Program-made: the position numbers
DNA from: a virus
Taxonomy: Duplodnaviria; Heunggongvirae; Uroviricota; Caudoviricetes
Reading direction: 5' to 3' (one strand)
Length of the DNA stretch: 39,177 bases
Virus record (IMG/VR): IMGVR_UViG_2778261068_000002
Location: 1 to 39,177 of that record
Shown: in pieces, positions 18,001-22,080 of the stretch
Position numbering within the stretch: position 1 is the stretch's first letter
Layout: each line of letters begins with the position of its first letter

Positions 18001-21000
18001 GCCCCCTTGGGAACACGCATGAATTTTTTAACAGCCTCCGAAATCGGCATGCGACGTGGTGGGGAAAATCCTGCCGATATGTCCCTTCCCAAATTTCGGG
18101 CTGATGAAAAACCCATTATTCCTCCTAGAGACTCTCTCCTTCCTCATCAGGAATTAATTCAGCAGCACAAGCCTCGTAGGATTTTTCCTGAAGAGTGTAT
18201 CGCAGGTCATCAATGGCCTGCTGTACAACGCCGACGGCCTGAGGAGTCAGGGCGCAATCGCGTTCAAGAACATCCGGAATTGTCTCCAGAACCTGGACGA
18301 CAGCCTTTCTCATGGACGAATAGACGATGACTACTTCATCAACTGGGATGAGTTTTCGCTGCTCCTTTTCCAGCTTGATCCTTTCATTTTCAGACTGGTA
18401 CCAGTCCTTTCTCTCTTTCGGCTCCATACGGGATGGATCATGAACAGAGTCTGCTGCCTCATGCTTCACACTAAACAGGGCTGGCCCGACATGCTGCAGG
18501 GCGTAAACGGGGTTCCCCCTGACAGTCGCAGCCACAGGAGTGTTGGCCGCGAGGAGCCGTTTTTTTACTGTGTCCCGGTGAAGCCCAAAGGCCTCGGCGA
18601 TTTTAAAAACACTCCAGTAATAAGCATCACCGATCCCGCTCACATTTGACATAAGCAACTCCATCTGGCAGGTGAAAATCAGGTTTATTTATATATTTCA
18701 ATTAATTGCAAACTGGTCTAATGACAGGGAGAAAAAAATATTGTACAGGTGAAAAGAGAAATAACTTTTAATTATCAATAAATTACTAAACATGTTGCCG
18801 CCGCCATGGAAATGCAAAAACTAGCCTTTTTCCGCGACGCTCCCGCCCCGTGGCAGGCCACCCCACCGGGAGGACCCGTCAGCCTGACAGCCATGACGAA
18901 CGTCTGATACAGCGCCCTGCATGAATGGCATCGGGATAATCCAGAAAGGAATAGCATCGTGCCCACAAGAATCTGTGTGAGTGTCCTGTTTCTTCCCCCC
19001 CGCACACTCACGCAGAAGGGGTTCCCCGTCGAGTTACGGTCATAGTTAATGCAGGAGACAGCGACGATATAGCGCACAGAAATAAATCAAGCATCCATTG
19101 AATGCATTGCATCGACAGGAGTAATGGCGTAGGCTGAACCCTTGGCTCTCTTTCGCCGCCGGCAAATCTTCAGCGGATTATCCTTGGCCGGTTTTTATCT
19201 GAGGCATTGCTCACGAATGTATAGCTGTGCCCCTTCCAGTTGCTTCTGCATCGTCATCAATCGGTCTCTGAGGGTGAAATAATCCCGTTCAGCGGTGTCT
19301 GCCAGTCGGGGGCTGGTTGCATCATCCACGCCGGAGGAGGCGGTGGCTTCACGCACGGCTGGACAGACTGCTCTGATGCGCAACCGACGACGACCAGCGG
19401 CAATATCATCACGCAGAGCATCATTTTCAGCTTTCGCATCAGCTAATTCCTTTGAATATTTTGCATCGAGTGCAGCAACGTCACGCTGGCGCACCTGCAT
19501 ATCAGTAATGATCGCCTCTGCCAGTTTCAGCTCTCTGGCATTGTCATCGCGTTGTGTTTTGTAGGTAATGGCGTTATCGCGGTAATGATCTGTTGCCAGC
19601 CACAGAGCACTACAGACCATCAGCAGGACAATAATCACGCCATACAGAATCCGGTTCATTTCACCACCAGCGTATCTGACCGATGAAATAACCGGAGCCC
19701 ATAACCACAAACACCAGCCAGATAAGGATGAACTTCCAGGTGGATAATTTTTCAGCCATCACTCGAATCTCCAGAATCAGTTTGCTAAAATCAAACACGT
19801 TTTCTCCTTTAGCTTTCCCATGGGCAGAAAACAAAACCCCGCTTGCTGCCAACAAACGGGGTTTTTGCTTTTATTCACTTCCTTTTGCCAGTTTGCAGAA
19901 TATCGTGTTATCCGCTTGTGTGAGCAAACGGCATTTTTCAGCAAAATATTCTGCTTATCTGTCGATCCCCCAGCACACCAGCGCACTCTCCTGGTCACGA
20001 CGAATAACCTGACCGTAACAGTTATTTGAACGAATGCGGCAATCACGGCCACCGTCCTTAATCCACCAGCGAATCGCCTCGCATGCGCCTTTACGATCAC
20101 CGGCATTCAGCCGCTTATAAAACGTCGACGGGAAACACTTACCGGGGCCAATGTTATAGGGACAAAATGACGCAATACCTGCTTTTTGTGGTTCGGTCAG
20201 TGGTACTTTTATATTGCGATCCACCCATGCCAGCGCCTTATCACGTTCAATAGCGTTAACCTGGTCGCATTTTTCCTTCGACAGCTTCATTCCCGGTATG
20301 ACGGGCTTACCATCCACCATTGTGGCACCACGACAGATGGTCCATATGCCAGAACCATCACGGTATGCCGTTGTGTGGTTACCTTCTTTTTCATCCAGAA
20401 ACTGGTCAAGTATTTGAGGAGCAGACGCGCCTGCAGCAATCAGCGCCAGAACGGCAGCTGACAGGCCATATTTGATTTTTACGTTCATGGATATTTATCA
20501 GGATTTATCGGTTCCTGAACCCTGGATATGTTTAGTACTCAGCCCGGCAGGTAGTTCCTCGCAGGGGTAATACTGACAATGTGAAGATCACAGAACAAAC
20601 AGTAAGGACAACATATGAGCGATACTTATTTATCTAAAAAAGCTTTTGCTGATATTCTGGCCATCAGACAGGTTGTCATACTCCTAGTTAACGCTTTACC
20701 AGATGAGAAAAAAGCAATTATTAAAGATTTGCTTACTAAATCAGCTAACACTTTTTCATCAATAAAATTACCCGAATCCCTGGAAACCCCGCAGGAAGTT
20801 TTAGACGAAATGAACAAATTGATTGCCGAATCATGCGTTACTCTTGCTGAGACAATTTTAATTCCTGAAGAAACTTCGTCGTCATACCATCAATAGTTTG
20901 CTGAACAGCTTTAGCAACAAACGCCACCCCATTTTCGTGGTGGCGTTGTCGCTCATTTACGGCTCGCATCGCGGCAACTATCAACAAGGCATACTTTTTT

Positions 21001-22080
21001 GCTCTCGCTTCATAGTCGCTGAACGTTGTTTTCGGGTCGTAGTCTTCCTTGTACATAACCGACAACATTTCTTCATTATCAAGCCAGACACTGACCTTGC
21101 TGCCGATTCTTTTCGTCAGCACAGGAGCACCACCTTTCCCGACTTTCTCTCTTGATGCCATATGCCCTGGAAACTCTACAGTAACCACCGCACGACTTAT
21201 GTCATCCCCGACGTTTTTTTCCTGCCCTGCGCGCCTGGTGTTGGCTTTAACTGCACTATCAAAACCCGCAAGATGAGGACGATCGTGTTTATTGGCAGAA
21301 TTTTCAATCTCAATGGAGTACTGATGCTGCAGATAAGACTCAACTTTTTCTGACAATTTTTCTGCCACTCCCAGGAGGACCTGCCTGACGCTCATTCTGG
21401 CTGCTGCCTCATAAAACTCCAGCGCGGCACCTTCAACACGGTCCAGCGAGATGTCCAGGTCAAAAATTTCACCGTCAAAGCGTTTTTTGTCCCGTAACGC
21501 TAAAGTTACCGTAACTTTATTCTCAAAATTGCAGATCCCTTTCACAATCAGTTCATAGTTTTGAGTCATTGAATTACTCTCCCCGCGCAGCCTTACGCTT
21601 GTCTTCTCTGATTTTGAAGTACAGATTTGTCAGATAAGTCAGGAAGCCCAGAACCAGACTCCCCAGCACACCAATCGCAGCCCACTGTGACGGACTGACC
21701 TGATCAAGCCACTGTAAAAACCAGTAGCCAGCACTGCCTGCGGAGGTGCCGTAGGCAATGCCCGTTGAAATTTTGTCCATGGATTTCATAGCCTCACCTC
21801 CGCAAATAACGGATGGCGTAGTTTTACACTGAGAGATGAAAGGGATTTGAAAAGAAAAGCCCGCAAAAGCGGGCGAAATTGGATCTACAGTCAGGAAAGC
21901 ACTCTATCCAACAAACCACCCACAGTTAATCGGAATAAAAGCAGAGTGCTTATGAATGATCGCCTGCCCGAAGGTTGTTATTCCTGCACAGCAATTTTGC
22001 AAAAAAGACGCTCATTCATAACCCAAACGTCTTTCAGTCACTCCGGACTTTCCCATCATCGCAGACTGAAAGGCTCTAAC

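What the first reader, a model, noticed from the sequence alone, without database searches (positions are those of the whole stretch)
20489..21573. Two-gene insertion splits a P21-type holin/SAR-endolysin cassette
S (pinholin) and the SAR endolysin are normally adjacent. Here about 1.1 kb separates them: a 243-aa soluble protein whose ATG is 5 nt after the S stop with a good Shine-Dalgarno, and an AT-rich 93-aa ORF on the opposite strand with its own AAGGA site, overlapping the 243-aa gene's 3' end by 59 nt. The 243-aa gene has host-like GC while the 93-aa ORF is AT-rich, suggesting two acquisition events. A precedent for a gene between holin and lysozyme exists in K-12 Qin (ydfR, recalled), but I cannot establish homology. 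The convergent overlap could allow antisense interference.
Basis: partly seen in the sequence, partly recalled or inferred. Interest (0 to 1): 0.7.

Follow-up and report, generated by a model that had tools for sequence, protein, structure and literature searches.

The report
Long ydfR gene plus opposite-strand moron
The DNA between the holin and lysozyme genes of this prophage is the full-length form of a slot that most related Escherichia prophages carry: a YdfR-family late gene (a truncated remnant in E. coli K-12) and a small AT-rich cargo gene on the opposite strand, so it is largely ordinary and its function is still unknown.

Summary
On the minus strand a P21-type holin (21574-21789) is followed 4 nt later by a 243-aa ORF (20838-21569). 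A 93-aa AT-rich ORF converges on the plus strand (20615-20896, 59-nt overlap), and then comes a 177-aa lysozyme (19955-20488).

It is not an unusual insertion. Among 72 related cassettes, 47 carry a DUF1327/YdfR gene exactly 4 nt after S, always with the 177-aa lysozyme. Twenty-five have the P21 layout, with S abutting a 165/166-aa lysozyme.

Residues 1-98 of the 243-aa protein are 83% identical to K-12 YdfR. K-12 ydfR-rrrQ equals this locus minus exactly 773 bp. The extra 145-aa C-terminal module is a rare orphan.

The 93-aa ORF (phrog_2572; predicted three-helix bundle) sits in a slot that non-homologous small ORFs fill in other prophages. It looks like a moron with a 3' hairpin, but no promoter was found.

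The module and the small ORF each occur without the other, so a toxin-immunity pair is unlikely. Both genes evolve under much weaker constraint than S and R.

The only functional lead is published: K-12 YdfR residues 1-72 bind the RNase E catalytic half, and YdfR co-purifies with RNA.

Verdict: new member of a known kind, modest interest.

The parts
21574..21789 (-). S21-type class II holin (pinholin type), 71 aa, dual start MKSM
   Evidence: PF04971 at E 1.4e-35; phrog holin
20838..21569 (-). 243-aa YdfR/DUF1327-family late gene; its ATG lies 4 nt after the S stop and its SD lies inside the 3' end of S
   Evidence: PF07041 at 149.7 bits; 83% identity to K-12 YdfR over residues 1-98; the exact protein occurs on at least 24 contigs
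21276..21569 (-). Codons 1-98: the DUF1327 domain plus the 'EKLSEKVESYLQHQYS..NKHDRPH' linker shared with K-12 YdfR
   Evidence: residues 1-72 of K-12 YdfR bind the RNase E N-terminal half (PMC13232886)
20838..21275 (-). Codons 99-243: a basic (pI 9.1) orphan C-terminal module; the conserved core is roughly residues 125-205 (VTVEFP...RIGSKVSVWLD..LSVMYKEDYDPKTTFSDYEARAKKYAL)
   Evidence: only 8 representatives in 1.84 billion proteins; no Pfam or PDB match; it also occurs as a stand-alone 143-144-aa gene beside a different holin cassette; pN/pS 0.50 against L020
20615..20896 (+). 93-aa acidic (pI 4.7) AT-rich ORF, phrog_2572, predicted three-helix bundle; candidate moron
20838..20896 (.). 59-nt convergent overlap of the two 3' ends
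20920..20947 (+). Perfect 9-bp GC-rich hairpin starting 24 nt after the stop of the 93-aa ORF, inside codons for RHHENGVAF of the 243-aa gene. The equivalent hairpin in t86 relatives is followed by 5-8 U (terminator-like); here the U-run is degenerate
   Evidence: 76-nt fold z -4.4
20489..20548 (-). About 60 nt of leader upstream of the R ATG, nearly invariant in all slot variants; it marks the left edge of the variable cassette
   Evidence: no stable fold
20499..21271 (.). 773-bp block absent from K-12 Qin (and, by the same 103-aa form, from mEp460); its flanks are exactly contiguous in K-12
19955..20488 (-). 177-aa lysozyme (rrrQ type) with an Ala/Gly-rich N-terminal hydrophobic segment (SAR-like)
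   Evidence: PF00959; 93% identical to K-12 RrrQ
19195..19710 (-). Rz spanin, with the embedded Rz1 at 19257-19439
   Evidence: PF03245 and PF06085
21859..21874 (-). GC hairpin plus T-run 70 nt upstream of S (tR'-like terminator)

Best explanation
The S-R interval is the long form of the 'ydfR slot' found in Escherichia lambdoid lysis cassettes that pair an S21-type holin with the 177-aa RrrQ-type lysozyme.

Gene 1 (243 aa) is a late-operon gene read from the same Q-antiterminated transcript as S, R and Rz. It is probably translationally coupled to S. Its first ~98 residues are the YdfR/DUF1327 domain. By homology with K-12 YdfR, this domain should dock on the catalytic N-terminal half of RNase E and/or bind RNA late in infection. 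The remaining 145 residues are a rare, exchangeable orphan module. The family as a whole is one conserved head followed by mosaic tails.

Gene 2 (93 aa) is an independent AT-rich cargo gene (a moron) inserted head-on between gene 1 and the conserved R leader. It has its own Shine-Dalgarno site and a 3' hairpin, and it is probably expressed in the lysogen when the late operon is silent. The last ~35 codons of gene 1 are the antisense of the moron's 3' end and hairpin, so the 59-nt overlap is a packing by-product. Q-modified polymerase would read through the hairpin and the 350-nt untranslated gap to reach R.

Shown: identities, layout, distribution, deletion relationships and relaxed selection.

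Inferred: RNase E or RNA binding by this protein, lysogenic expression of the small gene, and any phenotype.
For: Family and homology: PF07041 at 149.7 bits; 83% identity to K-12 YdfR over residues 1-98.

Published function of the homologous segment: YdfR residues 1-72 bind Rne 1-597 in a bacterial two-hybrid assay. Rne1-598 co-purifies with Strep-YdfR, and so does DNase-resistant nucleic acid (PMC13232886).

Survey of 72 cassettes: 47 have DUF1327 exactly 4 nt after S. All 47 carry the 177-aa-type lysozyme and none the 165-aa type. Sixteen of the HMM-detected cases also have a convergent small ORF.

Mosaic tails: forms of 103 to 328 aa share residues 1 to ~66.

K-12 equals the window minus 773 bp with contiguous flanks. 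The 174-aa form is a 207-bp in-frame deletion that keeps the small ORF.

Moron features: GC 35.8% against 49.9% for the window. The slot is occupied by non-homologous small ORFs: phrog_2572, phrog_2411 and phrog_1853. A hairpin follows the stop and is terminator-like in phages 2H10 and PhiR5_1. The same layout occurs in sequenced free phage genomes.

Coding strand: plus-frame score 156 against antisense 89; AF2 three-helix bundle at pLDDT 74.

Accessory status: pN/pS is 0.43 for the DUF1327 head and 0.46 for the t90 ORF, against 0.08 for S and 0.10 for R177.
Against: No sigma-70-like promoter was found upstream of the small ORF, either here or in three relatives.

The window's hairpin lacks a proper U-run.

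Within-type dN/dS cannot separate the plus frame from the wobble-sharing antisense frame, which is also largely open at 87 codons.

RNase E binding was shown only for K-12 YdfR, mostly with overproduced protein. Overexpression changed few transcripts.

The AF2 model of the 243-aa protein is unreliable at pLDDT 45, so nothing structural supports any activity.

The perfect linkage with the 177-aa lysozyme could instead point to a lysis-related role.

The survey took the 80 loci with the holin most similar to this one out of at least 598, and it contains redundant prophages.
Confidence: 0.6

Rival explanations
1. Lysis accessory factor. The DUF1327 protein works with the lysis proteins themselves, for example by chaperoning or restraining the 177-aa SAR-type lysozyme or tuning the pinholin, and this is why it sits between S and R.
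For: DUF1327 co-occurs perfectly with the 177-aa lysozyme type: 47 of 47, against 0 of 25 with the 165/166-aa type. Its start is invariably 4 nt after the S stop. The stand-alone C-terminal module also sits next to a different holin cassette.
Against: The protein is soluble with no membrane segment. pN/pS is 0.43 against 0.08-0.10 for S and R. The 177-aa lysozyme also occurs beside a slot gene that lacks the DUF1327 head, in a Stx2a phage (L103). Truncated 103-116-aa forms predominate. The co-occurrence can be explained as simple linkage of one recombination block.
Confidence: 0.15
2. Effector-immunity (or toxin-antidote) pair. The basic variable C-terminal module is an effector. The small acidic helical protein, encoded on the opposite strand between it and the lysis gene, is its cognate inhibitor. 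This would resemble the opposite-strand immunity gene of pore-forming colicin operons.
For: Each tail type pairs one-to-one with a small-ORF type: the 243/174-aa tail with phrog_2572 t93, the 176-211-aa tail with t86, and the 'LTYLKVRI' tail with phrog_1853. The charges are complementary: pI 9.1 against 4.7.
Against: The module core occurs without an intact small ORF in L020, in L019 (where only the last 40 codons remain) and in P0008/L105. The small ORF is kept where the module core is deleted, in the 174-aa form found in 6 complete E. coli genomes. The pairing follows trivially from physical overlap. There is no PADLOC, Pfam or PDB hit.
Confidence: 0.07
3. The 93-aa ORF is not translated. 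The region is only an untranslated spacer or an antisense-RNA locus, and the open frame is a by-product.
For: No promoter was found. The antisense frame is also open for 87 codons. dN/dS does not discriminate between the frames. Frameshifted 94-aa variants of the t90 type exist.
Against: There is an ATG with AAGGA at ideal spacing. The full-length ORF is kept at 40% amino-acid identity in t86 relatives, with a plus-frame score of 156 against 89 for the antisense frame. The helical fold is predicted at pLDDT 74. The antisense translations are Ser/Cys-rich and lack a good start. No Rfam family matches.
Confidence: 0.1
4. Both genes are decaying passengers with no current function, in a recombination-prone junction of defective prophages.
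For: pN/pS is high relative to S and R. Many truncation and deletion forms exist. This long form is rare: the t93 cassette is in 7 of 5426 complete E. coli genomes.
Against: pN/pS remains below 1, at 0.43-0.50. The slot is occupied in sequenced free phage genomes (2H10, PhiR5_1, mEp460). The DUF1327 head is retained in every truncation. The exact 243-aa protein is conserved on at least 24 contigs.
Confidence: 0.08

Closest known systems
E. coli K-12 Qin prophage essQ-ydfR-rrrQ (YdfR, P76160, DUF1327/PF07041)
   Same: It has the same gene order and the same 4-nt S-to-ydfR spacing. Identity is 83% over residues 1-98, 82% for S and 93% for R. The flanks of the extra block are exactly contiguous in K-12.
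   Different: K-12 YdfR is 103 aa and overlaps rrrQ. The window has 773 additional bp, which encode a 145-aa C-terminal module, the opposite-strand 93-aa gene and the R leader.
Phage 21 lysis cassette S21-R21-Rz-Rz1 (pinholin plus SAR endolysin)
   Same: The holin belongs to the PF04971 family and has the dual start. The lysozyme is PF00959 with a weakly hydrophobic N-terminus. Rz and Rz1 are embedded.
   Different: In the P21 layout S abuts a 165/166-aa R (25 of 72 loci). Here R is the 177-aa RrrQ type and lies 1085 nt away.
Lambda bor and other lambdoid morons (my own knowledge: Hendrix/Juhala definition; bor lies on the opposite strand inside the late transcription unit and is expressed in lysogens)
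   Same: It is a small gene of deviant GC, on the strand opposite to late transcription, present or absent between conserved neighbours, with a 3' hairpin.
   Different: There is no sequence similarity. No promoter was identified. It overlaps the neighbouring gene's 3' end. Its product is cytoplasmic and helical, not a lipoprotein.
Phage-encoded RNase E modulators (my own knowledge: T7 gp0.7, phiKZ Dip, T4 Srd)
   Same: They are a functional analogy only: a phage protein that contacts RNase E. K-12 YdfR binds the RNase E catalytic half (PMC13232886).
Pore-forming colicin operons (my own knowledge: the immunity gene lies on the opposite strand between the activity and lysis genes)
   Same: The layout of a long modular gene, a small opposite-strand gene and a lysis gene is similar.
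   Different: Obligatory co-occurrence fails. The small protein is not a membrane protein. No translocation or receptor domains are present.

Membership tests
YdfR / DUF1327 (PF07041) | Sequence match to the family model above Pfam's gathering score | tested here: met
   149.7 bits against a cut-off of 25, covering residues 1-93; E 1e-60 to K-12 YdfR
YdfR / DUF1327 (PF07041) | Position immediately downstream of an S21-type holin and upstream of an RrrQ-type lysozyme | tested here: met
   The same spacing is seen in 47 of 47 DUF1327-bearing loci
YdfR / DUF1327 (PF07041) | Binding to the RNase E N-terminal half and co-purification with RNA (shown for K-12 YdfR only) | not testable with these tools
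   PMC13232886; inferred here from about 82% identity over residues 1-72
Moron (autonomous cargo gene in a phage operon) | Present or absent between otherwise conserved neighbours in related phages | tested here: met
   The slot is empty, or filled by three non-homologous small ORFs
Moron (autonomous cargo gene in a phage operon) | Nucleotide composition differing from the surrounding genome | tested here: met
   35.8% against 49.9% GC; GC3 0.31
Moron (autonomous cargo gene in a phage operon) | Own terminator | tested here: inconclusive
   A 9-bp hairpin starts 24 nt after the stop but has a poor U-run. The homologous cassette in 2H10 and PhiR5_1 has a hairpin followed by 5-8 U. The scan tool did not flag any of them
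Moron (autonomous cargo gene in a phage operon) | Own promoter | tested here: not met
   No sigma-70 consensus match in the window or in three relatives. A non-consensus promoter is not excluded
P21-type pinholin / SAR-endolysin cassette | S21-family holin with a dual start | tested here: met
   PF04971 at E 1.4e-35; MKSMDK N-terminus
P21-type pinholin / SAR-endolysin cassette | Endolysin with an N-terminal signal-anchor-release domain | not testable with these tools
   Residues 8-24 (GLSAAVLALIAAGASAP) fit the pattern by eye. Membrane release is an experimental property
P21-type pinholin / SAR-endolysin cassette | S and R adjacent or overlapping | tested here: not met
   A 1085-nt gap here; adjacency is seen only with the 165/166-aa R type
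Toxin-immunity / toxin-antitoxin pair | The two partners are inherited together | tested here: not met
   Each occurs without the other
Known anti-phage defence systems (PADLOC-DB 2.0) | Match to any defence protein model | tested here: not met
   0 families at E up to 1 for both proteins
Known antisense or regulatory RNA families (Rfam 15) | Covariance-model match in 19000-22500 | tested here: not met
   Only the four tRNAs match

The most novel reading that the evidence does not exclude
The slot between S21-type holins and RrrQ-type lysozymes could be a dedicated diversification site. A conserved RNase E/RNA-docking head (DUF1327) would deliver exchangeable C-terminal effector modules late in infection. 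Each module would be accompanied by a small opposite-strand protein, expressed in the lysogen, that modulates or guards against it. That would amount to a modular phage system for rewiring host RNA decay, with a lysogen-side safety catch.
Probability: 0.08. Interest if true: 0.65.

Novelty: new member of a known kind. Interest (0 to 1): 0.3.

Why it matters
It explains the K-12 y-gene ydfR as the truncated remnant of a longer modular late gene. It also shows that the holin-lysozyme junction of a very common Escherichia prophage cassette is a variable cargo slot rather than a fixed two-gene unit.

Together with the 2026 report that YdfR binds the catalytic half of RNase E, it gives a concrete set of natural variants for testing what the family does: head only, head plus different tails, and tail alone. 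The practical impact is modest. No phenotype is known, selection on both genes is relaxed, and this long variant is rare.

Tried and rejected

2. The AF2 model of the 93-aa protein (pLDDT 74) found nothing with Foldseek: no PDB or BFVD hit below E 1. The afdb50 library was unavailable.

3. Sequence searches of both proteins against PDB, NCBIfam and PADLOC found nothing. Pfam at E up to 10 was also empty for the C-terminal module and for the 93-aa ORF.

4. I first treated the 90-aa small ORFs as the same family as the 93-aa ORF, because my search profile had included one of them. Profile-profile comparison gave a probability of 0.6%, and they fall in a different PHROG, so I withdrew that view.

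5. Within-type dN/dS as a test of coding strand was not discriminating, because the antisense frame shares wobble positions. Codon-position composition was likewise undecided.

6. The genome-contig scan for taxonomic breadth returned only 3 loci, one of them a probably mis-binned 'Bacillota' MAG.

7. The invariant R leader has no stable fold (z +0.5).

8. Literature searches for DUF1327, ydfR and lysis-cassette morons found only the RNase E interaction paper as functional evidence.
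Full report
**1. What is there**

The window is a lambdoid prophage. It has an integrase at 38104-39177, a tail gene J at the other end, and Q at 23455-24228. The lysis region lies on the minus strand.
- A tR'-like hairpin sits at 21859-21874.
- The holin S (21574-21789) is 71 aa, matches PF04971 'P21 holin S', and starts MKSM.
- A 243-aa ORF (20838-21569) follows. Its ATG lies 4 nt after the S stop and GGGGAGAG sits upstream.
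- A 93-aa ORF lies on the plus strand (20615-20896), with AAGGA 6 nt before its ATG.
- A 177-aa lysozyme (19955-20488, PF00959) comes next, then Rz/Rz1.

The two inserted ORFs overlap by 59 nt at their 3' ends. GC content is 46.0% for the 243-aa gene, 35.8% for the 93-aa ORF and 49.9% for the window.

**2. The 243-aa gene is a long YdfR**

Residues 1-93 match PF07041 (DUF1327) at 149.7 bits. Residues 1-98 are 83% identical to K-12 Qin YdfR at E 1e-60.

At the DNA level, window 19945-20498 aligns to K-12 positions that are directly contiguous with those aligning to window 21272-21816. K-12 essQ-ydfR-rrrQ is therefore this locus minus exactly 773 bp (20499-21271), with only an AGGA-type microhomology at the junction. 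The window ORF reads smoothly through that junction. K-12 YdfR ends five codons after it and has lost most of the otherwise invariant R leader. I infer that the K-12 form is a deletion derivative.

A second derivative is a 207-bp in-frame deletion (20983-21189) that gives a 174-aa protein. RefSeq flags it as a pseudogene. It keeps the 93-aa ORF.

**3. How common the arrangement is**

I took the 80 IMG/VR loci whose holin is most similar to this one (at least 90% identity, out of at least 598 hits). A lysozyme was detectable in 72 of them.
- In 25 loci S abuts a 165/166-aa lysozyme, which is the phage 21 layout.
- In 47 loci a DUF1327 gene starts 4 nt after the S stop, always followed by the 177-aa-type lysozyme.

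The DUF1327 proteins in these loci are 72, 104, 114, 116, 174, 183, 243 or 268 aa long. Sixteen of the 47 loci also carry a convergent small ORF detected by my profile, and one more carries a different small ORF.

The sample is not random and contains related prophages, so these fractions are indicative only. They are enough to show that a gene between S and R is the rule for this cassette type.

The specific long form is rare. The 93-aa cassette is in 7 of 5426 complete E. coli genomes, and only one of them covers at least 80% of the C-terminal module DNA. The exact 243-aa protein is on at least 24 contigs. Sources name the exact 93-aa protein as Escherichia albertii and E. coli.

**4. The family is a conserved head with mosaic tails**

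All forms share residues 1 to about 66. After that come two linker types and several tail modules in different combinations.

An exhaustive phmmer search with the window's tail (residues 99-243) found only 8 cluster representatives in 1.84 billion proteins. One of those is a spurious low-complexity repeat protein.

The core of the tail (roughly residues 125-205) also exists as a stand-alone 143-144-aa gene. That gene lies immediately upstream of an unrelated holin cassette in another phage type.

**5. The 93-aa ORF**

It matches phrog_2572 at E 4e-39. Homologues at 38-40% identity sit in the same place and orientation in phages 2H10, PhiR5_1, PhiR12 and PhiR63_1, overlapping the DUF1327 gene by 53 nt.

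The antisense frame that shares wobble positions is also largely open at 87 codons, and within-type dN/dS does not separate the two frames. Several observations favour the plus-strand gene.
- The between-type alignment score is 156 for the plus frame against 89 for the antisense frame.
- The ATG and Shine-Dalgarno site are well placed.
- The antisense translations have a poor, Ser/Cys-rich composition.
- AF2 predicts a three-helix bundle at pLDDT 74.

Foldseek found nothing similar.

The 90-aa ORFs that occupy the slot next to 114-aa DUF1327 genes belong to a different family (phrog_2411; hhalign probability 0.6%). A Stx2a phage and locus L097 carry a third family (phrog_1853). Unrelated small genes at one position and in one orientation are the signature of a cargo slot.

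**6. Cassette anatomy**

The ~60 nt upstream of the R ATG (20489-20548) are nearly invariant in all variants and mark the left edge of the variable DNA.

A perfect 9-bp hairpin (20920-20947) starts 24 nt after the stop of the 93-aa ORF. In the homologous cassettes of PhiR5_1 and 2H10, a 10-12-bp hairpin at the same relative position is followed by 5-8 U, which makes it terminator-like. These hairpins lie inside the last ~35 codons of the DUF1327 genes. The protein tails encoded there (RHHENGVAF..., KRRDEQFAAFY...) are the antisense of the small gene's 3' end. I therefore read the overlap as a consequence of tight insertion, not as a designed regulatory device.

No sigma-70 consensus promoter precedes the small ORF, here or in relatives. 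This is the weakest point of the moron reading. No Rfam family matches the region.

**7. Are the two genes a pair?**

Tail type and small-ORF type go together one-to-one. They overlap physically, so that is expected.

The module core occurs without an intact 93-aa ORF in three places. These are L020, L019 (where only the last 40 codons of the small ORF remain) and the 328-aa form P0008. Conversely, the 93-aa ORF persists where the module core is deleted. A toxin-immunity relationship is therefore unlikely.

**8. Selection**

Pooled pairwise pN/pS is 0.43 for DUF1327 codons 1-66 and 0.46 for the 90-aa ORF family. The window tail scores 0.50 against L020. By comparison, S scores 0.08 and the 177-aa lysozyme 0.10. 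Both slot genes behave as accessory genes, not as core lysis components.

**9. Likely mechanism**

The only experimental lead is Göpel et al., RNA Biol 2026 (PMC13232886).
- The first 72 residues of K-12 YdfR bind the RNase E N-terminal half in a two-hybrid assay, and bind RNase G more weakly.
- Rne 1-598 co-purifies with Strep-YdfR, as does DNase-resistant nucleic acid.
- Overexpression changes few transcripts, and the gene is silent in standard growth.

The window protein keeps about 82% identity over that segment. My best-supported model is a late protein, made together with holin and lysozyme, that docks on RNase E or RNA through its head and carries an exchangeable tail. Beside it sits an independent cargo gene expressed from the prophage. 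Q-antiterminated late transcription would read through the cargo gene's hairpin and the untranslated 350 nt to reach R.

The layout and relationships are shown. The binding, the expression pattern and any phenotype are inferred.

**10. Verdict**

The finding is real but mostly ordinary. It is the long, rare member of an annotated but uncharacterised family, in a known position, plus a moron-like ORF. The main points of value are three:
- the link to K-12 ydfR as a 773-bp deletion remnant;
- the recognition of the S-R junction as a variable slot;
- a set of natural variants for testing the RNase E lead.

Noticed in passing
window 22534-23283 (-): A 249-aa AT-rich (36.7% GC) ORF that looks like a multi-pass membrane protein lies between Q and the tRNA cluster. 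A shorter counterpart in relative L013 carries PF27470 (TfpB), but there is no Pfam hit here. It is probably another moron in the Q-S interval.
   Followed up: partly
window 22081-22390 (-): Four tRNA genes (Gly-TCC, Thr-TGT, Arg-TCT and a CAT anticodon called Met) lie between Q and S. E. coli relatives annotate the corresponding cluster as Gly, Thr, Lys and Ile.
   Followed up: partly
window 24629-25588 (+): An LpxR (outer-membrane lipid A deacylase) homologue lies on the opposite strand just upstream of Q. It is a likely lysogenic-conversion gene.
   Followed up: no
window 3173-3694 (+): A Cu/Zn superoxide dismutase (SodC, PF00080) gene lies beside the tail-tip gene J. This is a classic prophage cargo.
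   Followed up: no
window 19661-19865 (-): A 15-bp terminator-like hairpin (19833-19865) and a 45-aa hydrophobic ORF (19661-19798) lie between R and Rz. Gene callers call the ORF in all close relatives, so a second small insert lies inside the lysis cassette.
   Followed up: no
window 20489-20548: About 60 nt upstream of the lysozyme ATG are nearly invariant across all slot variants, yet show no stable RNA fold (z +0.5) and no obvious Shine-Dalgarno site. K-12 has lost all but about 10 nt of this stretch.
   Followed up: partly
window 20838-21569; locus L001 3899-4423: None of the 21 members of the 243-aa protein's cluster carries a name or accession from any source, although several lie on NCBI genomes. 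RefSeq marks the 174-aa in-frame deletion form as an incomplete pseudogene. The long forms seem to be under-annotated.
   Followed up: partly
L103 (Stx2a phage LC567842) 3214-4181: A Stx2a-converting phage has the same holin, long gene, convergent small gene and 177-aa lysozyme layout. Its long gene (213 aa) lacks the DUF1327 head and consists only of tail modules found in 296-aa DUF1327 proteins.
   Followed up: partly
L020 (JAEWTL010000010.1): A contig labelled 'MAG: Bacillota bacterium' carries this Escherichia-type S, DUF1327 and R cassette at 79-94% protein identity. It is probably a mis-binned enterobacterial phage contig.
   Followed up: no
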